NCBI GenBank assembly: GCA_020638955.1
Contig: JACKHO010000007.1
Coordinates: 246,745-310,744 of the forward strand
Source of the DNA: Planctomycetaceae bacterium
Lineage (GTDB): Bacteria; Planctomycetota; Planctomycetia; Planctomycetales; Planctomycetaceae
Direction: 5' to 3'
Length of the DNA: 64,000 bases
Positions 8,048 to 58,162 of the stretch are shown one piece after another; within the stretch, counting starts at the first letter, position 1; each line of letters begins with the position of its first letter. A program made the translations under genes and the position numbers. The notes beneath the pieces are model-generated. The model ran no database searches. It was given only the letters and a program-made list of their open reading frames with translations, and was not told where the DNA came from.

Positions 8048-8238
8048 GCTTCTCACCTTGCTGAAGTGACAGAGAATCCGAGTCTGATCGTAACCAATTG
8101 ACCATGCCCCGTGCACGGACCGCCGCAAACTTTCAGAGATTCGGTGTGGGCAGACTGATTGGTTTTCCAGTACAACAACGTGCACTCCTTAACCCAAAGT
8201 CACTGTTGCAGCGACTGTGGAGGAAGTCACCGCATTGT

Positions 8239-8348
8239 GGTGGGTTACGTCCGCTTGTCGCCCATCACCGAAACTTTGCCTCCTGATCTTGTTGGATGAC
8301 TTGCCTAACGCACTTTCCGATTTGACGCGAACTTCACCCACCCTACGA
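8239..8348 (+). repeat. Copy a of repeat family R1 (about 110 bp, bounded by GGTGGGTTACGTC ... ACTTCACCCACCCTACGA).
   Basis: Shares its terminal blocks and the internal block TTGC(C/G)TAACGCAC with 43962-44072. The 5' GGTGGGT is complementary to the 3' ACCCACC. It ends 18 nt upstream of the M28 peptidase ATG. Confidence 0.6.
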
Positions 8349-9967: not shown

Positions 9968-10423
9968 TCACGACTTCGGTGGGAGGACGACGACGGTGAA
10001 GTAGAAGTTCGTAATGCCCTGGATAACGTGCAGGAACTGGTTGAAGTCGACCGGTTTGGTGGCGTAGGAGCTGCACTTGAGTTTGTACATGCTCAGTACG
10101 TCGTTCTCGTCGGAGGAGGTTGTGAGAATCATGACCGGAATTTGTTTCAGGTCGTCGTCTTTGACCAGTTCGGCAAGCACTTCCCGTCCATCCATAATGG
10201 GCATGTTCAGGTCCAGCAGAATGAGGTCCGGTGTGGGAACTTCGGAATAGCCCTCCTCCTTCCGGAGAAACTTCAGGCACTCTTCGCCGTTTTCGACGTG
10301 GTGCAGGTTCACGACGAGGCTCGATTTGTCAAAACCAATCCGGGTCAGTACGACGTCGTCTTCGTTGTCCTCGACCAGGAGAATTTCTGCTGGTCGACTG
10401 CCTCTCCCATCCATGACCTGCAT
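9968..10423 (-). CDS. Single-domain response regulator, CheY-like receiver.
   Basis: ILLVEDNEDD ... DLILLDLNMP ... the T-S-S and K-P receiver signatures. Confidence 0.85.
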   Translation of the reverse strand: MQVMDGRGSRPAEILLVEDNEDDVVLTRIGFDKSSLVVNLHHVENGEECLKFLRKEEGYSEVPTPDLILLDLNMPIMDGREVLAELVKDDDLKQIPVMILTTSSDENDVLSMYKLKCSSYATKPVDFNQFLHVIQGITNFYFTVVVLPPKS

Positions 10424-11002
10424 GCTGCCGCTCCACTGTTGTCGTTACTTAGAGGTCTCATCACTTGGAGGAAAGGGGAATTGTAAAATAGAACGTCGTT
10501 CCCTTACCGGGTTCCGATTCTAGCCAAATCCTCCCACCGTGGCGATTCACGATACGGCGGCAAACTGCCAGACCAATGCCGGTACCGGGGTACTTATCCT
10601 GGCCGTGCAGACGCCGAAAGATTTCGAAAATCTTCTCGTAATGTTTTTCGTCGATGCCAATGCCGTTGTCGCGCACCGAAATGGTCCACTCGATTCCGTT
10701 GGACTCCGCTGCAATGAAAACCTGGGGAGGGGCATCACCGTGATATTTCAGACCGTTACCAATGAGGTTCTGCAACAACTGCGACAATTGCGATTCATCT
10801 CCCATGACGGTTGGCAGTTCGCCATGCGTGACCTCGCCATCGGCGTCTCGAATTTCGGCGTACAGCAGCGTGATGACGTCATCGACGACGGCATTCAGGT
10901 TTGTCGGCTCGAACGGTCGCGACCGGGACTCGACACGTGCATAAGTCAGCAGATCATTAATCATGGCAATAATATACTTGACTCACCACACCTGTCAAGT
11001 AG

Positions 11003-11043
11003 CAATGAAACAAAACAGCCCACGCAGAGGTTTCTGCGTGGGC
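11003..11043 (-). terminator. Intrinsic terminator just inside the left inverted repeat of the IS1595 element.
   Basis: Hairpin GCCCACGCAGA-GGTT-TCTGCGTGGGC (11018-11043). On the minus strand it is followed by TGTTTTGTTTCATT. Confidence 0.5.
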
Positions 11044-11420
11044 CACACCACTAACGTGGGCGACGATTGGTTTTATTTCCCAAATACTGGGAATCGAAAC
11101 GGCTTTCCATCGCGTCGGCGAATGTACTTCCGTGCACGCCAATGCCACACGGTCCAGCACACAACCCAACGCACAATGCGCCGTTTCTTCGTTCGGACAT
11201 GAGAAGTACTCATTTCGTCCTCCGGAAAAAGGATTTGCAAAATTCCCCGGAGGAACTATTCTAGAACCTCCGGGGTGTCCAAGCACAAATGACGCTCGGT
11301 GATACTTGCGGCAGGGGAATAGCAGTCCCCTGTCGCTTTCTCTTTTCAGTATCTGGGCTCCGAGCCGACCGCCTCTATCTTCTCATGGGCACACCCTCCG
11401 TTGGTTTGTGAAAAACGGGA

Positions 11421-12047
11421 CTAAGTAGCTCGGTCAACGAATGAGTCGATGCTGCTGACTGGATTTTCACCGTCAAGCGTGCTTTCAGGAGGCTTTGTCG
11501 GTGAGAACGGGTTATTCACTGCATGCGGTGAGCCAATCGCTGTGTAACCCGCCCGCCTGGCTTTTGAGATGCGCCCTGCCTTCACAAGGTTGGAAAGGCT
11601 GGCGCTGACAGCACCGTTGAAGTTCTTGGCGTTGGAGTACACCTTTCCTGCGAGTGCCTTCGTTACTTCGGATAGCCGGAACACACGATTTGGCGCGCTG
11701 TTTATGAGTTCGGCAGCCGCCTCAAGAATTGTTGGGCGATCATCATCCGGTTGCGGTTGATCCGCGGCGGCTGGAGTAGGCGTCACATCATCAGCAGTGA
11801 GCCTGTCAAGATATTCAACTCGGCTCATGTTGGTGACTCGTTCGGCCATTCGCTCCACAGCGGAAATCTGTGCCTCAATCTCCGCCACCCGCTTCTTGGC
11901 ATCGTTCAAGTCAAATCGTAGGACCTCGACTACATCCGCAATTGTCACTGATTTCGCTTGATTTTTGTCAGACATTTCAGTACCTTGGCGCGTAAGAATA
12001 GCGTTGCCCCGCATATCGCGGCGTTTCGTTGTTCGGATTGAAGCCAC
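11421..12047 (-). CDS. Passenger gene of the IS1595 element: 208-aa hypothetical protein with a coiled-coil N-terminus and a possible winged-helix-like C-terminus.
   Basis: Lies inside the inverted repeats, downstream of the transposase and on the same strand. GGAG sits 4-7 nt upstream of the ATG at 12047. I recognise no family. Confidence 0.55.
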   Translation of the reverse strand: MASIRTTKRRDMRGNAILTRQGTEMSDKNQAKSVTIADVVEVLRFDLNDAKKRVAEIEAQISAVERMAERVTNMSRVEYLDRLTADDVTPTPAAADQPQPDDDRPTILEAAAELINSAPNRVFRLSEVTKALAGKVYSNAKNFNGAVSASLSNLVKAGRISKARRAGYTAIGSPHAVNNPFSPTKPPESTLDGENPVSSIDSFVDRAT

Positions 12048-12349
12048 TCTGGAGACGAATCTTGCCGGATTACTCCACAGTGGCTCGTTTTATAGGGTAC
12101 AACCCACAAGTACACAATCACAATCCAAAGGATTTCGGACGGATTCGGGAAATAGTTGATGCTGTGTACCACATCGTGAGTTTGCAATGCCGCCAAGACA
12201 TGCCAAAGACTCGCCTAAATCGCACCCATTTGATGCGGTTCCAGAGTTCCGGAAAGCACTTAATTGCCTAGCGAAAGTGCCAAAAAGCGAGATAGAGAAG
12301 AGGGAACAGGAACTGAAACAGCCTCGCAAGCCAGCGAGTGATTAGCTAA

Positions 12350-13315
12350 CTATCTGTTCAGTTCAACCAAATCGGTGTATGTGAGCCTATTGCCAACAAC
12401 ACCGGCCATCGCCACGTCAAAACGCTCGCCGTCCGAAAGCTTGCGTTCATTGAATCGAAAGACTTGCTCGTCAACATACCGGCACAAGTGCCACGGCATG
12501 ACGCTGATGTAAGTTCCGTTCAAGCATCGCTTTAGCAGGCTCCAGAAGTTCTCCATCCCATTGGTGTGCACATCACCACGGACATACTCCTTTGCGTGGT
12601 CAACGGTGTCGTGAAGGTATTCGTCTTCCAGCCCTTCGTAGGACCGTAGTGCGTCTGTGTAAATACTTGCACCAGCCTCCACAGAAGCCCGCACATTTGG
12701 TTGTAGCGTCTTGCGTTTGGAATCCTGGACAACGCCTGCGATGACCATACCTCCCCGCTGCAAAACCCCCTGCACAATCGTTTTGCCAACAGCTCCGCGA
12801 CCTTTGATTTTTCTGGCACGCTCGGCTTTATGCATGTTCTTCGCCTTGCCGCCAACGAAGGTTTCGTCGGCTTCTACAGTTCCAGACAGCTTTCCTGAGA
12901 AGTTGCCAGCCGACAATGCAACACGAATACGGTGAAGCATGTGCCACGCGCTCTTCTGTGTGATCCCCAGTGCCCGGCTGAGTTCGTAGCTGCTTATGCC
13001 GTTCTTGGCCGAAGTTATGCACCACACAGCCACAAACCACTTGTCGAGCCCCAACGGGCTGTCTTCAAATATTGTGCCCACTTTGTAGCTGAACTGCTTA
13101 CGGCAGCCCTTGCATCGAAGCATCTTGCGAGTTTTGATTTCGCCGATTCGCTGTCCGCCACACTTTGGGCACGCAATAGCACCGTCAGGCCATTTGATGC
13201 CCTTCATGTACTCGTTGCAGCGGTCCAGATCGGAGAAGAACCGAACAGCTTCAATCAGTGTCTTTGGTGTGGCGTCCATCGTGCTGGCTCCGGGTTTGTT
13301 CTCGGTACAGCACAA
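12350..13315 (-). CDS. IS1595-family (ISXO2-like) DDE transposase.
   Basis: N-terminal zinc ribbon CPKCGG...CKGCRKQF, then the DDE_Tnp_IS1595-like core (DETFVGG ... YTDALRSY ... HTNGMENFWSLLKR). Confidence 0.9.
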   Translation of the reverse strand: MCCTENKPGASTMDATPKTLIEAVRFFSDLDRCNEYMKGIKWPDGAIACPKCGGQRIGEIKTRKMLRCKGCRKQFSYKVGTIFEDSPLGLDKWFVAVWCITSAKNGISSYELSRALGITQKSAWHMLHRIRVALSAGNFSGKLSGTVEADETFVGGKAKNMHKAERARKIKGRGAVGKTIVQGVLQRGGMVIAGVVQDSKRKTLQPNVRASVEAGASIYTDALRSYEGLEDEYLHDTVDHAKEYVRGDVHTNGMENFWSLLKRCLNGTYISVMPWHLCRYVDEQVFRFNERKLSDGERFDVAMAGVVGNRLTYTDLVELNR

Positions 13316-14712
13316 TTCTAGCTCTACCCCATTGGTGAGTCAAGTATATTATTGCCTTAATCATGGTCTGCATACGTTTGCAGCCGTTGACAATCCGGTC
13401 GATTTGGTCGTCCGCGTTCTGGTCGAGTTTCCCCCGATAGTCCTGCTTCAGGAATTGAGCAAAACCAGCGACCGCCCGTAGCGGCGACTGCAGGTCATGC
13501 GAGGCAATGTAGGCGAACTGTTGCAGTTCCATGTTGCTCTGTTCGAGAAACTCATTCTTCTCGTGCAGTTCGCGCGTCATTTCCATGACGCGGTCATTCA
13601 GGCTGGTACTCAGTTGCTTCAGGTTCTTCGTAAAATCGGCAAGTGCCTGTTGCTCGCGCATTTCCGTGAGGACAACAAACCAAAGTGCCACGCCGTATGC
13701 CATGAGCCGCAGCAAGTGCCAGCCCCACCAGGGTAAATCCCACAACTGCGACTGCTCGAACATGACCGCCGCCGCGCCGAACAGCGAACAGTGGAGAAAG
13801 AACAGCAAGTCATCGACGTTTTTGGTCTGACGGTAGGTGGTTACCAATCGTACCGCGGCGGCAATGAGGAGTACTCCACCCACAACATTGAGACTCTTGG
13901 CCCACAGGCTGAAGACCTTCTCCCCCTGCTCGTTGACGAACAACATGCGAGGAGTTGCGCCGGGATACGCCAGTGACAGAATGCCGAACAGAAAAACGAC
14001 ACCAAATACTGCCCAAGGCCACCACGCCAATAAGCGTCGCCCCCAGCTCTTGGGCACCCAAACCATTGCAAACAGTACGCCGCCGACAAATGTCGCAGTG
14101 CTATGCAGCCAGACGAATTCCTGGCCAGCGTAGACGAGCGCATGCAGGCCATCGAGCAGCCCCATGCCAATCATGGCCCCGGCAATCCAGACGTTATAGC
14201 TCGTTCCCGCGTTCCGCCATTCCAGAGACAACAGCATCCACGCGACCCAGACGGCAATAAGTCCGCCGGACATCTCCACGGCAGCATGGACTGGATGATG
14301 TGGCCAACGCCACTCGCGCATGAGGGTATGCCCCAGAATCAGGCACACCACGTGAATAACGAGACTGACGCCAATGACCACCCACAAAGTCCGCCCCAGG
14401 CGTGGGGGAGGGCGAACGACGACATCAATCCCCAACGGCAGAGCAGCCGCCGGAAGTGGTTGCCGTTCACTGTCAGTGTGTGGCACGGAGTCGTTCATTG
14501 GAAGTGAAAGCCAACTGACGTGGTGGGCCAGTAGCCGTTCCAAGTGCCCCTCCCTGTGGGGCCGCGGAACCTGCCGCTGCATCCCCTTCGTCTGCCAGAG
14601 AACTCGAGCAAACAGATTGTTTCACAGAACCTCTCGCCATTACTGCAAAGATTCCATGAAACGCTCTGTTCCGACTTTCGCATCGAAGCGTGCTGGTGTC
14701 AAGCCCTTGCGG

Positions 14713-15906: not shown

Positions 15907-15980
<74 letters not shown>

Positions 15981-16200
15981 CTTCTTTTCCCCTCACCCGG
16001 CATTGCTCTTCTGAGGGATGGGCTGAATCCGCAAGACGTTTCCTTGTGGTCGTTCTCTATTCGCCAGCGGAAATGCTGTAGATCCTCACCCGAGATTCTC
16101 CCCGACATTGGCCGAACGATCCCACGGTGGCATTCGAATGGCCGTAAGCGGTACTCTTGTTTCATCAACAGTTGCCAATTTGATGAGAGTAAGGACTGCC

Positions 16201-17700: not shown

Positions 17701-19370
17701 TTCGTCAGCCTCGTTGCGTCAATTGGGATTTTGGTCAGAGTGCCGCCGTATTTCTCGTTTACTCGACGATTCTCGTCGGCCATGCATTCGGCGCCGAAAC
17801 CTCGCCGCCGAACGTGTTGTTCATTCTGGCCGATGACCTCGGCTATGGAGATTTGGCGTGCTACGGCAATCCCGTCGTTGAAACGTCCGCCATTGACTCG
17901 TTGGCACGAAGCGGTGCGAGGCTCACTCAGCATTATGCGCCATCGCCACTTTGCGCCCCGTCTCGGGCGGGGTATTTGACCGGTCGGTTTAACCATCGGA
18001 CCGGCGCTGTAGATGTTCCGAGTAACCGGGGGCTCGACCGTATTGCCCTTTCGGAACTCACATTCGGCGACTACTTTCGCCACGCCGGTTACCGCACCGC
18101 ACTCATTGGGAAATGGCACAACGGTCTGTACTGCCGCGACTATTTGCCGCACCACCGCGGGTTTGATTTGTTCTTCGGCTTCCCCAACGGCGGACAGGAT
18201 TACTGGAAATGGAACTTGTTGCGGAATGACATCCATGTCCCGCACGATGGACGTTACCTGACCGACGCCTTCAACGATGAAGCCATTGAATTCGTTACGC
18301 GGTGCTCGAAAGGGAAACAGCCGTTTGCGTTGTTCCTGGCCCATCACACACCGCACATGCCGTTTCAGGCTCCCGAGCCTCTTGTGGAGAAGTATCGCCA
18401 GAAGCTTGGTGATGCGTCCCTCGATAACGTCGCCATCATTTACGCCATGATTGAAGCCATGGACCTGGGACTCGCGCGACTGTTTCAGAAGCTCGATGAA
18501 TTGGGAATCCGCGACGACACCATTGTCGTGTTCACCAGCGACAACGGCGCTCAGTTTGGGAAAGTTGATGGTCTGACAACGCAGCGGTTCCACGCTGGGC
18601 TCTCGGGCAACAAGGGTGATGTCGGCGAGCAAGGAATTCGGGTTCCGGCCATTGTGTCGTGGCCGGGGCACATCCCGAGTGAGCGGGTCATCGACACACC
18701 CCTTCACGGATGCGACTGGTTGCCCACGTTATTCGCGCTGACCGGAAGTAAACTTCCACCCAAAGCGAAGCCATTCGACGGACGAAATGTTCTCCCGATT
18801 CTCCGCGGCGAATCAGATTCACAAATGCTTGAATGGCCGCTCTACTTTCAAAAGAACCGCTACCTGCCGGTCGAACATAGCGATGCGGCCATTCGACAGG
18901 GAAAGTGGAAACTCGTCTGGCCGGGCATCTCCAGCACCATGCGGAAGGATTCTGGCCGCGACAATCCTTCGTACCTGCGTGGCATTACGAATCCACACTG
19001 GGAAATGCCCCTCGACCGCGAACTGGCCGAACCGGACGAGAGCGATGCCCCCAGACCAAAATTGTTCAACCTGAATGTTGATCCCGCTGAACGCTTCGAT
19101 GTCGCGTCACAGCATCCTGAAATGGTGCATCGGCTCAGCAGCGAATACGACGCCTGGTTCGCTGAAGTCATGTATGAGTGGCAGATGTCGCGACAGGAAA
19201 TCCTGGAACATGACCGCACGTATTGGAACGACCGTACGTCGCCCGATCCACGAGCATTGTTCGACGACTATTGGCTCTGGCGAGACGCGCCGGCGGGAGC
19301 AAATCCTCAGACGACCGATCCGCTGAAGGTGTTTCGCGGATACTGGTCGAATGAGGAAATGTCGCGGTAA
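17697..19370 (+). CDS. Second Cys-type sulfatase, translationally coupled (ATGA overlap) to the upstream sulfatase.
   Basis: VLFILADDLGYGD ... CAPSRAGYLTGR ... HTPHMP ... SDNG. Confidence 0.85.
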   Translation: MIRQPRCVNWDFGQSAAVFLVYSTILVGHAFGAETSPPNVLFILADDLGYGDLACYGNPVVETSAIDSLARSGARLTQHYAPSPLCAPSRAGYLTGRFNHRTGAVDVPSNRGLDRIALSELTFGDYFRHAGYRTALIGKWHNGLYCRDYLPHHRGFDLFFGFPNGGQDYWKWNLLRNDIHVPHDGRYLTDAFNDEAIEFVTRCSKGKQPFALFLAHHTPHMPFQAPEPLVEKYRQKLGDASLDNVAIIYAMIEAMDLGLARLFQKLDELGIRDDTIVVFTSDNGAQFGKVDGLTTQRFHAGLSGNKGDVGEQGIRVPAIVSWPGHIPSERVIDTPLHGCDWLPTLFALTGSKLPPKAKPFDGRNVLPILRGESDSQMLEWPLYFQKNRYLPVEHSDAAIRQGKWKLVWPGISSTMRKDSGRDNPSYLRGITNPHWEMPLDRELAEPDESDAPRPKLFNLNVDPAERFDVASQHPEMVHRLSSEYDAWFAEVMYEWQMSRQEILEHDRTYWNDRTSPDPRALFDDYWLWRDAPAGANPQTTDPLKVFRGYWSNEEMSR

Positions 19371-20296: not shown

Positions 20297-20830
20297 GACA
20301 ATCTCCGTTGCCTGATGCCGCAATTCCCCAATATGAATGGCGGAAATGGGCGATTGCGAATGAGAAGCCGCGCGAAGCAAGAAACGGACCGGATGCCGAG
20401 GCATCCTGCCGGACCGAGTCTGTTCTCCGCAGACTTTCATTCAGTTGACTGACCACAAGGCAGGTCTTCTGGCTTCCGGATTGTCCTACTTGCCGCGCCT
20501 TCCCTCACACGTTTGTGAAGTGGCGAGTGCGGCGTTCGTCCCCGGTTACAGCGGCGGGACCGCGACGGATTTACACCGTCTTCCCTATTCTTCCACCAGG
20601 AACACCCTGGCGGACACCTCGGTCAGCTGGAATCGTGACGCGGCGTGGTTCGATTGTCAAGGAATTCAAACTCGCCACGAATTGTGAGAACCGCAACGTT
20701 TTCTCATCAGTCACAGAAGGTCTTGGGGGGATTCGTCCAAGTCGCTATCTTCTCAGTCATTACAGCAACGGAAGCTCCCTAAATCGCTTCCGGTCATCGT
20801 CCCCATTGCAATTGCAGAATACCCATTCCC

Positions 20831-43857: not shown

Positions 43858-43961
43858 CGCATAGCCCAACTGACACTTCCTCGGATTGCGTCCCCGATGT
43901 AACGGCATCGTATCGGTATGGCTCCCTTTTGTAGGGTGTGTGCAGCAAGTCGCCGGAATTT

Positions 43962-44072
43962 GGTGGGTTACGTCAGCGAATCACGCGTCACGGAAATGGC
44001 GCCCCGATTGTCGCAGCGAACGACTTGCGTAACGCACCATCCTGATTGTCGCCGACTTCACCCACCCTACGA
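43962..44072 (+). repeat. Copy b of repeat family R1, 30 nt upstream of truA.
   Basis: Same termini as copy a (GGTGGGTTACGTC ... ACTTCACCCACCCTACGA) and the shared internal block GACTTGCGTAACGCAC. Confidence 0.6.
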
Positions 44073-57182: not shown

Positions 57183-57245
57183 CAAGCCGAGGGGTGGCCC
57201 AGATCAAATCTGAGCGGCGAAGCCGTTCAAGGCTGCGGATTGGTC

Positions 57246-57377
57246 AACCATCCGGGCAGTCGCGTTGAATCTCTGTTTGACGGAAGAGAATCACTACGGA
57301 GTCACGGAGGATACAGAGCTGGCGTAATGTCGGCGGCCTCCTGAACAATTCTCAGTGCCCTCCGTGCCTCCGTGGTT
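57246..57377 (+). repeat. Copy a of repeat family R2 (about 135 bp, terminator-like structured element).
   Basis: About 85 percent identical to 57990-58120. It contains the long imperfect stem CTACGGAGTCACGGAGG / CCTCCGTGCCTCCGTGG around a loop of about 45 nt, followed by TTTTCTC. Confidence 0.6.
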
Positions 57378-57500
57378 TTCTCAAAACAAACATTCCCACG
57401 CTATGGCGAGACTTGGGAAAAACGCAGACTTGAATTGACCTCGGAATTCCAGTCCAGGCACCGAGACAGTTCTTGTCGATCACACAGTGCATGACGTACG

Positions 57501-57956
57501 ATGAATTGGCTGAACATCAGCCTGAAATCTCACAAGATGCTCGGGGGTGGCATGTATCTCCTGACAATGCTCGTCAATGCAGTTGTCGCGCTTTCCATAG
57601 GAACTCTGCTGTGGATTGGATGCCAGAATTCCGGTCATACCCCAGATTCTCTTAACGTCATTGTCGGCGTGGTGCTCATTGCAATCCCGGGCGTGGCGTT
57701 CTCCGCTGTCGCGTTCGTTACACGCAAGCACCGCTGGCTGGCTTTAGTGACTCTGTGTGCCTCAATATTCGTCGGGGGATTGGCCGTTTGGATTCTGGGA
57801 ACGAACACCCCCTTCGCACGCATTCCGCCGGGTGATCTTTATGAAAACCCGGCCCCGCCCATTGTTTTGTTCGGTCAGACTGTCCTGACGGCAATTTGCA
57901 CGACGCTGATTCTGCTACGGTACGGCTTTGCCGGCATGTATTCGCAAAAACGCTAG
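57501..57956 (+). CDS. Hypothetical four-helix membrane protein.
   Basis: Hydrophobic segments LLTMLVNAVVALSIGTLLWIG, VIVGVVLIAIPGVAFSAVAFV, LALVTLCASIFVGGLAVWIL, LFGQTVLTAICTTLILL. Flanked by the two R2 copies. Confidence 0.45.
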   Translation: MNWLNISLKSHKMLGGGMYLLTMLVNAVVALSIGTLLWIGCQNSGHTPDSLNVIVGVVLIAIPGVAFSAVAFVTRKHRWLALVTLCASIFVGGLAVWILGTNTPFARIPPGDLYENPAPPIVLFGQTVLTAICTTLILLRYGFAGMYSQKR

Positions 57957-57989
57957 CAACTCAACTGAAATTGGGGCGGCGAATTCGTC

Positions 57990-58120
57990 GACCAATCGGG
58001 CAGTCACGTTGAATTTCTGATCGACGAAAGAAAATCACCACGGAGTCACGGAGGACACGGAGCTGGCGTGATGGCGCCGTCACCTGAACAATTCTCACTG
58101 CCCTCCTTGTCTCCGTGGTT
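57990..58120 (+). repeat. Copy b of repeat family R2.
   Basis: See copy a. Its T-tract is weaker (TTATTCG). Confidence 0.6.
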
Positions 58121-58162
58121 ATTCGTCGCCGTCCTGATTTTATCTGGGCCACCCGAGGCTTT

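What the first reader, a model, noticed from the sequence alone, without database searches (positions are those of the whole stretch)
10957..13364. IS1595-family element precisely interrupts a sensor histidine kinase just upstream of its response regulator
The element has perfect 23-bp terminal inverted repeats (10965-10987 and 13334-13356). The 8-bp direct duplication TTAATCAT flanks it on both sides. The kinase reading frame continues across the duplication: the upstream part ends ...CKRMQTMI and the downstream part begins MINDLLTYARV. The reverse complement of the duplication, ATGATTAA, supplies an in-frame ATG. A free HATPase_c fragment could therefore still be translated, and the cognate receiver (9968-10423) is left orphaned. 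The clean duplication, the identical inverted repeats and the intact transposase together suggest a recent, possibly still active insertion.
Basis: seen in the sequence. Interest (0 to 1): 0.7.

Follow-up and report, generated by a model that had tools for sequence, protein, structure and literature searches.

The report
Cargo-carrying IS1595 element splits sensor kinase
A 2.4-kb mobile element of the IS1595 family, carrying three extra small genes besides its transposase, has inserted cleanly into a bacterial sensor-kinase gene and split it in two, which is an ordinary kind of event.

Summary
A 2,392-bp element (10965-13356) has perfect 24-bp inverted repeats. It is flanked by the 8-bp duplication TTAATCAT, which occurs nowhere else in the window. 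Removing it in silico restores one 573-aa MASE3-HisKA-HATPase_c kinase that is colinear with homologues. The transposase is an intact IS1595-family enzyme.

It carries three further ORFs:
- a 52-aa 'VPK-motif' ORF;
- a 184-aa coiled-coil plus winged-helix protein;
- a 46-aa basic ORF followed by a terminator.

It belongs to a clade found in Planctomycetota, Acidobacteriota and other phyla. The clade shares conserved ends, AT-rich 8-bp duplications and variable cargo, largely toxin-antitoxin, abortive-infection and restriction-type genes. The VPK ORF occurs once in 49 of 54 mapped elements and never in their flanks.

A near-consensus outward promoter at the distal end points at the ATG of the HATPase fragment and the intact downstream response regulator. 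Its activity is untested.

Every independent assembly found has the filled site. No empty site and no second copy was found, so 'recent/active' is plausible but unproven.

Verdict: a real but ordinary insertion, and a new member of a known kind.

The parts
10957..10964 (.). Left copy of the 8-bp target-site duplication TTAATCAT. On the minus strand it reads ATGATTAA, giving M407-I408 of the kinase and the first codons of the C-terminal fragment.
   Evidence: It is one of only two occurrences in the window.
10965..10988 (.). Distal terminal inverted repeat, at the end far from the transposase: GGCAATAATATACTTGACTCACCA.
   Evidence: a perfect 24-bp reverse complement of 13333-13356. The same motif, with at most 2 mismatches, bounds the related elements in L004-L008. 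Similar ends bound most of the relatives in L010-L089.
10971..10998 (-). Outward-facing sigma-70-like promoter candidate. The -35 is TTGACA (10998-10993), the spacer is 16 nt, and the -10 is TATATT (10976-10971, inside the inverted repeat). The predicted start is about 10964, the A of the ATG.
   Evidence: 11 of 12 consensus matches. A TTGnnn at the same place occurs in about 12 of 38 relatives. Function is not tested.
11005..11046 (-). Intrinsic-terminator-like hairpin (GGCCCACGCAG-AAAC-CUCUGCGUGGGCU followed by a U run). It ends minus-strand transcripts of the element just before the outward promoter.
   Evidence: The 116-nt region has an MFE of -43.1 kcal/mol and a z-score of -3.9.
11073..11213 (-). 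ORF46, a 46-aa basic, Trp-rich ORF (MSTSHVRTKKRR...PFRFPVFGK) preceded by GGAGGA. Function unknown.
   Evidence: One homologue (55% identity over 38 aa, E 5e-10) sits at the same relative position next to the distal repeat of a Pirellulales element, L024 10075-10209. No Pfam, NCBIfam or PADLOC match.
11308..11336 (+). Terminator-like hairpin on the plus strand, between ORF184 and ORF46. Role unknown.
11421..11975 (-). ORF184, a passenger protein with an N-terminal long helix (coiled coil) and a C-terminal winged-helix domain. Alternative upstream starts give 197 or 208 aa (to 12014 or 12047).
   Evidence: The AF2 model gives pLDDT above 90 for roughly residues 80-140. The best Foldseek hits are the linker-histone H1/H5 globular domain, the Rok DNA-binding domain and Fur/Zur DNA-binding domains (E about 0.02, target TM-score 0.65-0.7 for the linker-histone hits). 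Among 5.8 billion proteins only near-identical copies were found.
12187..12345 (+). 'VPK-motif' small ORF of 52 aa, convergent with the transposase. It is the conserved second gene of this IS clade.
   Evidence: An HMM hits exactly one ORF in 49 of 54 mapped elements and none in 420 kb of flanking DNA. It is the only hit in the window (E 1e-17). At the conserved F, V, P, K and E codons, positions 1 and 2 are 87-100% conserved and position 3 only 34-60%. The AF2 single-sequence model is a helix, a VPK turn and a second helix. No Pfam, NCBIfam, PADLOC or PDB match.
12350..13279 (-). IS1595-family transposase, 309 aa from the ATG (321 aa from the TTG at 13315).
   Evidence: It keeps all residues invariant among 15 homologues, including CxxC...CxxC, D138, D209, N240/E243 and K250.
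13315..13343 (-). Transposase promoter candidate. The -35 TTGACT lies inside the proximal inverted repeat, the spacer is 17 nt, and the -10 is TAGAAT.
   Evidence: 10 of 12 matches.
13333..13356 (.). Proximal terminal inverted repeat, at the transposase end.
13357..13364 (.). Right copy of the 8-bp target-site duplication TTAATCAT.
13251..14582 (-). N-terminal kinase fragment: 408 aa of MASE3 sensor plus most of HisKA, including the H-box, fused to a 35-aa tail encoded by the element. Its end overlaps the transposase start by 29 nt.
   Evidence: NCBI annotates it as a 411-aa hypothetical protein (P0001).
10461..10964 (-). C-terminal kinase fragment: 167 aa comprising the last 13 residues of the HisKA match (M407-V419), the linker and a complete HATPase_c domain.
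   Evidence: It is annotated as a separate CDS in the public assemblies.
9968..10423 (-). Intact single-domain response regulator of 151 aa, 37 nt downstream of the kinase stop codon.
   Evidence: The homologous kinase in L094 is also followed by a single-domain receiver.

Best explanation
A 2,392-bp IS1595-family 'transporter IS' transposed into an AT-rich 8-mer inside a MASE3-HisKA-HATPase_c sensor kinase gene of a Planctomycetaceae bacterium. A transporter IS carries passenger genes between its terminal inverted repeats in addition to its transposase. Staggered cleavage and repair duplicated the 8-bp target TTAATCAT.

The insertion cuts the kinase after residue 408, 11 residues before the end of the HisKA (dimerisation/phosphotransfer) match. 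It separates the sensor and H-box from the ATP-binding catalytic domain. The kinase is therefore most probably inactivated (inferred).

The element's own minus-strand transcripts should stop at a terminator 50 bp inside its distal end. Immediately downstream of that terminator, a near-consensus outward promoter is predicted to start transcription at the element's boundary. That position is the AUG of the catalytic-domain fragment. The promoter could keep that fragment and the intact downstream response regulator expressed (predicted, not shown).

Besides the transposase, the element encodes the clade's conserved 52-aa helical-hairpin 'VPK' protein. It also carries two cargo ORFs: a coiled-coil plus winged-helix, probably DNA-binding, protein and a 46-aa basic protein. 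The functions of all three are unknown.
For: Anatomy: perfect 24-bp inverted repeats, an exact 8-bp duplication that occurs nowhere else in the window, and restoration of a 573-aa ORF on excision.

Kinase: the restored ORF has HisKA and HATPase_c domains plus a sub-threshold MASE3 match, and it aligns with 7 homologues without an indel at the junction. About 130 invariant columns are kept in both halves, including H362, N472, DNGIG and GTGIG.

Transposase: Pfam and NCBIfam IS1595 models score far above their cutoffs, and all residues invariant among 15 homologues are present.

Independent assemblies show the same junctions: two NCBI MAG contigs, a Logan contig spanning both junctions at 100% identity, and an ENA contig across the left junction at 100%.

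The clade: 38 related elements with refined ends share the terminal repeat motif. Of these, 31 have perfect 8-bp duplications with a mean GC of 25%. Only 1% of the window's 8-mers are as AT-rich as the target used here. All 54 mapped relatives carry 0.7-4.9 kb beyond the transposase.

Promoters and terminator.

VPK gene.

Passenger fold.

Literature: passenger-carrying IS (tIS) and IS1595 as the family at the IS/transposon frontier (PMC4611040 and PMC7986276, both citing Siguier et al. 2009; PMC9330008). Complete outward promoters in IS termini (PMC9330008).
Against: No empty site was found. The nearest full-length kinase homologue is only 67% identical. The exact empty-junction 23-mer is absent from the JGI metagenome contigs. 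Insertion is therefore inferred from anatomy, not from a before/after pair.

Only one genomic context of this element was seen, so there is no direct sign of current mobility.

The promoter and terminator are consensus matches in a planctomycete, whose promoter rules are poorly known. There are no expression data.

ORF184 and ORF46 have almost no relatives, so their coding status rests on thin evidence. ORF184 has a remote family sharing its C-terminal domain and a confident fold. ORF46 has a single homologue.

The subgroup assignment (ISNwi1-like) rests on my memory of the ISfinder end consensus and could not be checked.
Confidence: 0.9

Rival explanations
1. The two kinase pieces still work together. 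The N-terminal sensor-DHp fragment and the separately expressed catalytic fragment, made from the element's outward promoter as a leaderless mRNA, reassemble non-covalently. Alternatively, the N-fragment alone acts as a phosphatase or scaffold. On either version the pathway is rewired rather than destroyed.
For: The cut lies close to the DHp/catalytic-domain boundary, at residue 408 of a HisKA match spanning 353-419. Both halves keep every conserved motif. The near-consensus outward promoter predicts a transcript starting at the AUG of the C-fragment. From memory, not checked here: the separated EnvZ DHp and catalytic domains reconstitute kinase activity in vitro (Park, Saha and Inouye 1998).
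Against: The last 11 residues of the HisKA match are removed from the N-fragment and replaced by a 35-aa foreign tail. There is no Shine-Dalgarno sequence before the ATG. The promoter is only predicted. The undecayed sequence is equally well explained by a recent insertion.
Confidence: 0.07
2. The insertion is old and the element is an immobile, fixed relic. It is not recent or active.
For: Every assembly that covers the site is filled. No empty site was found. No second copy or other context was found. The element assembles inside a 458-kb contig, as a single-copy sequence would.
Against: The inverted repeats are identical at 24 of 24 positions, whereas most relatives show 1-2 mismatches between their two ends. 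The duplication is identical at 8 of 8 positions. The transposase keeps all invariant residues. Neither kinase half has acquired a stop codon, a frameshift or the loss of a conserved residue.
Confidence: 0.25
3. The junctions are an assembly or binning artefact: a mobile element from another genome was joined into the kinase gene by the assembler.
For: The sequence comes from a metagenome-assembled genome, and repeats are a common cause of chimeric joins. The element's GC content (52.3%) is slightly below the window's (55.3%).
Against: A chimeric join would not create an exact 8-bp duplication of the target or restore a perfect reading frame on excision. Assemblies made from different data sets with different assemblers give identical junctions.
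Confidence: 0.02

Closest known systems
IS1595 family insertion sequences, passenger-carrying members (ISfinder's '+' subgroups, or tIS; Siguier, Gagnevin and Chandler 2009, cited in PMC4611040 and PMC7986276)
   Same: A DDE transposase with the IS1595 catalytic domain and an N-terminal zinc ribbon. Short terminal inverted repeats beginning with GG. An 8-bp target duplication. Extra genes enclosed between the repeats.
   Different: No copy at 90% identity or above was found outside this organism. The closest transposases are 86% identical in metagenomes, 78% in the genome collection and 44% on plasmids. The cargo (ORF184, ORF46) has no annotated relatives. I have not seen the conserved 52-aa VPK-motif ORF described as part of the family, but I could not consult ISfinder.
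IS elements with complete outward-directed promoters (ISEcp1, ISAba1, IS1237, and pOUT of IS10; reviewed in PMC9330008)
   Same: A full -35/-10 pair close to one terminus that faces out of the element towards the neighbouring gene.
   Different: It is only predicted here. The review lists such promoters for the IS3, IS4, IS5, IS6, IS481, IS982, IS1380 and ISL3 families, and not for IS1595. The -10 lies within the terminal repeat, so the predicted start is the first flanking base.
Gene inactivation of regulators by IS insertion, for example mgrB disruption in Klebsiella (general knowledge, from memory)
   Same: A clean insertion with a target duplication inside a signalling gene, leaving the partner gene intact.
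   Different: No phenotype, selection pressure or empty-site comparison is available here. The organism is an uncultured planctomycete.
Rok of Bacillus subtilis and linker-histone H1/H5 globular domains (winged-helix DNA binders)
   Same: ORF184 is predicted to have an N-terminal coiled coil and a C-terminal winged helix. Its best structural matches are H1/H5 and the Rok DNA-binding domain.
   Different: Sequence identity is 16-24% and the Foldseek E-values are about 0.02. Many unrelated winged-helix regulators score almost as well. This is a fold resemblance only.

Membership tests
IS1595 family | Transposase with the IS1595-type DDE catalytic domain | tested here: met
   PF12762 matches at 1.7e-40 over the full model. 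NF033547 scores 191.5 bits against a cutoff of 75. All residues invariant among 15 homologues are present.
IS1595 family | N-terminal zinc-ribbon DNA-binding domain | tested here: met
   PF12760 matches at 4.3e-11. C37, C40, C56 and C59 are invariant.
IS1595 family | 8-bp target-site duplication | tested here: met
   TTAATCAT lies on both sides. Of 38 relatives with refined ends, 31 have perfect 8-bp duplications.
IS1595 family | Short terminal inverted repeats starting with GG | tested here: met
   The 24-bp perfect repeat GGCAATAATATACTTGACTCACCA.
IS1595 family | Classical IS content: transposition genes only, about 0.7-1.1 kb | tested here: not met
   The element is 2,392 bp and has three further ORFs between the repeats. 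It therefore fits the passenger-carrying (tIS) variant of the family, not a plain IS.
IS1595 family, ISNwi1 subgroup | Subgroup-specific end consensus (ggnnatTAT, from my memory of ISfinder) and transposase phylogeny | not testable with these tools
   ISfinder is not available. The ends GGCAATAAT (this element) and GGTAATTAT (relative L005) resemble the remembered consensus. Public annotations say only 'IS1595 family transposase'.
Transporter IS (tIS) | Passenger genes lie inside the terminal repeats and move with the element | tested here: met
   The ORFs at 11073-11213, 11421-11975 and 12187-12345 lie between the repeats. The whole 2,392 bp is identical in independent assemblies. Relatives carry other cargo inside equivalent ends.
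HisKA-type sensor histidine kinase (the interrupted gene) | H-box in a HisKA domain, followed by an HATPase_c domain with the N, G1 and G2 motifs, in one polypeptide | tested here: met
   This is met only after in-silico excision. HisKA matches at 4.2e-14 (residues 353-419) and HATPase_c at 4.5e-30 (461-571). H362, N472, DNGIG and GTGIG are conserved. In the actual sequence the two parts are separate ORFs.
Rok/H-NS-like nucleoid-associated silencer (considered for ORF184) | An oligomerising N-terminal domain plus a C-terminal domain that binds AT-rich DNA | tested here: inconclusive
   The architecture and fold are compatible, but the matches are weak and generic for winged helices. DNA binding cannot be tested here.
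Type I toxin-antitoxin (considered for ORF46 plus the plus-strand hairpin) | A small hydrophobic membrane toxin and an overlapping antisense RNA with its own promoter | tested here: not met
   ORF46 and its homologue are basic and not hydrophobic. No plus-strand promoter-like site was found in the region. There is no Rfam match.

The most novel reading that the evidence does not exclude
The 52-aa 'VPK-motif' ORF is a so far undescribed second core gene of a widespread IS1595 subgroup found in Planctomycetota, Acidobacteriota and other phyla. It would be a helical-hairpin protein with a basic tail that controls transposition or cargo expression. This subgroup would serve as a dedicated vehicle for small conflict modules (toxin-antitoxin, abortive-infection and restriction genes). 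In the window copy the cargo would instead be a Rok/H1-like coiled-coil winged-helix DNA binder.
Probability: 0.35. Interest if true: 0.55.

Novelty: new member of a known kind. Interest (0 to 1): 0.3.

Why it matters
The insertion itself is routine. It documents the loss or rewiring of one two-component pathway in an uncultured planctomycete, and it is a clean, fully delimited example of a passenger-carrying IS1595 element.

The wider value lies in what the comparison turned up. This IS clade has conserved ends and, in almost every member, a conserved but unannotated 50-aa gene next to a highly variable cargo. That cargo is rich in toxin-antitoxin, abortive-infection and restriction-type domains. 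If this holds up, it adds a very small transposon type to the known carriers of defence genes in phyla where mobile elements are poorly described. It also gives annotators a signature (terminal repeat plus VPK ORF) for delimiting such elements.

Tried and rejected
1. Empty site. A search with the restored kinase found only the organism's own truncated fragment, and then homologues of 67% identity or less. The exact 23-nt empty junction is absent from the JGI metagenome contigs. A look-up of the exact receiver protein returned only filled or uninformative contigs.

2. Other copies. A 36-nt string specific to this element's distal end is absent from the JGI metagenome contigs. The exact transposase is seen only in this context. 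There is no other copy in the window.

3. RNA families. There is no credible Rfam match in or around the element.

4. Function of the passenger ORFs. Pfam, NCBIfam and PADLOC gave nothing beyond a sub-threshold coiled-coil hit. A PDB profile search with the VPK motif found only chance matches at E above 4.

A single-sequence model was used instead.

6. dN/dS for the VPK ORF. The pairs are saturated and my first codon mapping was faulty. I replaced it with per-codon-position conservation.

7. Type I toxin-antitoxin reading of ORF46: rejected, because the protein is not hydrophobic and there is no antisense promoter.

8. Inversion of the cargo module in this element: rejected. The arrangement 'transposase followed by a convergent VPK ORF' is one of two common layouts in the clade.

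9. Subgroup naming. The ISfinder papers are not held and plasmid annotations are generic.


Full report

Yes. The 8-mer TTAATCAT lies at 10957-10964 and at 13357-13364. It occurs nowhere else in the 64-kb window. Directly inside these two copies lie reverse-complementary ends, GGCAATAATATACTTGACTCACCA at 10965-10988 and its complement at 13333-13356. The element is therefore 10965-13356, 2,392 bp long, with 52.3% GC against 55.3% for the window.

Deleting the element and one copy of the duplication joins the two minus-strand ORFs into a single 573-aa protein. That protein has a MASE3 membrane sensor (below Pfam's cutoff), HisKA (residues 353-419, 4.2e-14) and HATPase_c (461-571, 4.5e-30). Aligned with seven homologues of 50-64% identity, it shows no insertion or deletion at the junction (...KRMQTMI|NDLLTYARVE). 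It keeps about 130 invariant positions spread over both halves, including the phospho-accepting His362 and the N, G1 and G2 boxes.

The junction follows residue I408. The duplicated 8-mer encodes M407, I408 and two bases of N409, so both fragments carry these codons.

**2. What the element is.**

The ORF at 12350-13279 (309 aa from the ATG) matches the curated IS1595 models far above threshold: Pfam DDE_Tnp_IS1595 and Zn_ribbon_IS1595, and NCBIfam NF033547 at 191.5 bits against a cutoff of 75. It keeps every residue that is invariant among 15 homologues of 62-86% identity. These include the CxxC...CxxC zinc ribbon, D138, D209, N240/E243 and K250. A promoter-like site has its -35 (TTGACT) inside the proximal repeat, followed 17 nt later by TAGAAT, upstream of the gene.

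The transposase and its leader account for only about 1.0 kb. The remaining 1.36 kb (10989-12349) holds three ORFs.

- A 52-aa ORF on the plus strand (12187-12345), convergent with the transposase.
- A 184-aa ORF on the minus strand (11421-11975). Gene callers also chose a start giving 197 aa.
- A 46-aa basic ORF (11073-11213) with a GGAGGA ribosome-binding site.

The 46-aa ORF is followed by a strong terminator-like hairpin at 11046-11015 plus a U run.

**3. Relatives from elsewhere.**

The window comes from a Planctomycetaceae MAG. The exact transposase and the truncated kinase are on a 457,968-bp NCBI contig. A second assembly, GCA_020426185.1, has the same region.

Related transposases of 53-86% identity are numerous in Planctomycetota, Acidobacteriota and other phyla. 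I mapped ends in 54 related loci. They share the terminal motif GG(C/T)AAT(A/T)ATATACTTGAC... Among the 38 with refined ends, 31 have perfect 8-bp duplications with a mean GC of 25%. In this window only 1.0% of 8-mers have one G/C or fewer, as the target here does. The site of insertion therefore fits the clade's AT-rich target preference.

None of the mapped elements is a plain IS. They measure 1.65-5.9 kb and carry 0.7-4.9 kb beyond the transposase. Passenger-carrying IS ('tIS') are an accepted category, and IS1595 is the family in which the IS/transposon frontier was first discussed (PMC4611040 and PMC7986276, both citing Siguier et al. 2009; PMC9330008).

**4. A conserved second gene.**

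Clustering the cargo ORFs showed that the 52-aa ORF is the only widely shared one. A profile built from it finds exactly one ORF in 49 of 54 mapped elements. It finds none in the 420 kb of flanking DNA. It also finds one ORF just downstream of the transposase in 18 further loci whose ends I could not map. In the window it hits only 12160-12342 (E 1e-17).

The motif is F-(D/E)-x-A-(M/L)-R-K-L-V-x-V-P-K-x-E-(I/V), followed by a Lys/Arg-rich tail. At the conserved F, V, P, K and E codons, the first two positions are 87-100% conserved and the third only 34-60%. This is the signature of selection on a protein.

A single-sequence AlphaFold model gives a helix (14-29), the VPK turn and a second helix (33-44), with pLDDT about 90 in the core.

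The ORF sits either directly after the transposase or about 65-95 nt from the distal repeat. The two smallest elements (about 1.66 kb) contain only the transposase and this ORF. In a few elements the motif forms the C-terminal tail of a larger protein: DUF7689, or a 325-aa protein whose N-terminal part I read by eye as peptidase-like.

It has no match in Pfam, NCBIfam, PADLOC or the PDB. A weak look-alike follows the transposase of a distant IS1595 element on a Methylocystis plasmid, where it is not annotated.

**5. The cargo.**

I surveyed 100 cargo ORFs of at least 110 aa from the mapped elements. Those with Pfam matches were mostly conflict-system domains: SocA/Panacea (5), DUF3800 (5), HipA_2 (4), DNA methylase (2), Mrr (2), AbiEii-like AAA_21 (2), AAA_15 (2), AIPR (1) and PIN (1). 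There were also a few nested IS.

The window's own cargo is different and nearly unique. ORF184 has only near-identical copies among 5.8 billion proteins. An exhaustive HMMER search added a small family of roughly 190-aa proteins that share its C-terminal 65 residues. The AlphaFold model has a long N-terminal helix and a confident winged helix, with pLDDT above 90 for roughly residues 80-140. Its best structural matches are the linker-histone H1/H5 globular domain, the Rok DNA-binding domain and Fur/Zur domains, at weak E-values. I read it as a dimeric DNA-binding protein. Anything more specific would be speculation.

ORF46 has a single homologue, at the same position next to the distal repeat of a Pirellulales element.

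**6. Consequences for the kinase and the receiver.**

*Shown:* the kinase gene is split into two ORFs. One is a 443-aa ORF, made of 408 kinase residues plus 35 residues encoded by the element. The other is a 167-aa ORF comprising the end of HisKA, the linker and the whole ATP-binding domain. The 151-aa receiver 37 nt downstream is intact. A homologous kinase is likewise followed by a single-domain receiver, so the pairing is conserved.

*Inferred:* autophosphorylation needs the catalytic domain tethered to the DHp helices, so the kinase is most likely inactive.

*Inferred:* transcription entering from the kinase promoter would run through the transposase and the cargo and stop at the terminator at 11046-11015.

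*Predicted:* just beyond that terminator lies TTGACA, then 16 nt, then TATATT (11 of 12 consensus positions), facing outward. Its -10 lies inside the terminal repeat. The usual 7-nt spacing places the transcript start at 10964, the A of the ATG of the catalytic fragment. That would make a leaderless mRNA which continues into the receiver gene.

There is no Shine-Dalgarno sequence, and an in-frame TGA lies seven codons upstream in the repeat (sequence). This promoter is therefore the only evident route to translating the fragment. About a third of relatives have a TTGnnn hexamer at the same place at the distal end, and few have one at the proximal end.

Outward promoters in IS termini are well documented for other families. 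They can also serve to drive the transposase from a circular intermediate (PMC9330008). None of this has been tested here, and planctomycete promoters may differ from the consensus.

**7. Recent? Active?**

*For:* the repeats are identical, whereas most relatives differ at 1-2 positions between their ends. The duplication is identical. The transposase is intact. Neither kinase half has decayed.

*Against, or missing:* every assembly that covers the site is filled. These are two NCBI contigs, a Logan contig spanning both junctions and an ENA contig over the left junction, and across the element and its flanks they are 100% identical to the window. No empty site was found and no other copy was found.

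One oddity remains. The Logan contig starts exactly 30 nt (k-1) before the first base at which filled and empty alleles would differ. A graph branch between the two alleles would produce that. Its other end does not fit the same pattern, so I leave this unexplained (and the notebook).

**8. Verdict.**

The event is an ordinary IS insertion, and the element is a new member of a known kind: a passenger-carrying IS1595-family element.

The more interesting by-products concern the clade rather than this insertion. One is the conserved, unannotated VPK-motif gene. The other is the conflict-system cargo.

Noticed in passing
window 12187-12345 (+); L004-L089, one per element: A roughly 50-aa ORF carries the motif F-D/E-x-A-M-R-K-L-V-x-V-P-K-x-E-I followed by a basic tail. 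It is present exactly once in 49 of 54 mapped IS1595-clade elements and never in 420 kb of flanking DNA. No database annotates it.
   Followed up: yes
L004-L089 cargo regions (for example L005 4946-6583, L046 1324-2169, L048 3811-4728, L013 3285-6125): The cargo of this IS clade is highly variable. The ORFs with Pfam matches are mostly toxin-antitoxin, abortive-infection and restriction-type domains: SocA_Panacea, DUF3800, HipA_2 with DUF3037, HEPN, AIPR, PIN, AbiEii-like AAA_21, and methylase with Mrr. Some elements contain nested IS21, mutator or DDE_Tnp_1 transposases.
   Followed up: partly
window 11073-11213 (-); L024 10075-10209 (+): The 46-aa basic ORF next to the distal repeat has a single homologue (55% identity) at the same relative position in a Pirellulales element. 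That element's other cargo is unrelated.
   Followed up: partly
L002 (Logan SRR12358676 contig) = window 10937-13425: The left end of this contig lies exactly k-1 = 30 nt before the first base that distinguishes the filled from the empty allele. This would be expected if both alleles were present in the sample. The right end does not fit the same pattern.
   Followed up: partly
window 10989-10998 with 10978-10984: The outward -35 box and the inward TTGACT of the terminal repeat form a 7-bp-stem palindrome (ACTTGAC...GTCAAGT). Similar palindromes occur at the distal end of L005, L046, L048 and L058. This could be a second transposase-binding site or a regulatory hairpin.
   Followed up: no
window 20442-20634 (-): Cobalamin riboswitch (Rfam RF00174, 122.5 bits).
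   Followed up: no
window 15907-15981 (+): tRNA-Asp (GTC), about 1.3 kb upstream of the kinase's start codon.
   Followed up: no
window 8200-8348 and 43923-44072: Two copies of a roughly 150-bp intergenic sequence, 73-82% identical and 35.7 kb apart. The first lies just upstream of the M28 peptidase gene. The sequence is not identified.
   Followed up: no
window 57192-58154: A roughly 960-bp segment bounded by imperfect 29-nt inverted repeats. It contains two internal 105-150-nt direct repeats (57231-57377 and 57975-58120) and a 151-aa membrane-like ORF. It may be a non-autonomous mobile element.
   Followed up: no
window 17853-18232: Of the 26 differences between this contig and the sister assembly GCA_020426185.1 over 10.9 kb, 25 cluster in these 380 bp. 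In the sister assembly this stretch lies in the region annotated with sulfatase genes. The rest, including the whole IS and its flanks, is identical.
   Followed up: no
L094 1850-5116; L095 1419-4629: In homologous loci the MASE3 kinase is preceded by a response-regulator/SpoIIE (PP2C) phosphatase gene. That gene is absent upstream of the kinase in the window, where an AP_endonuc_2-family gene lies instead.
   Followed up: no
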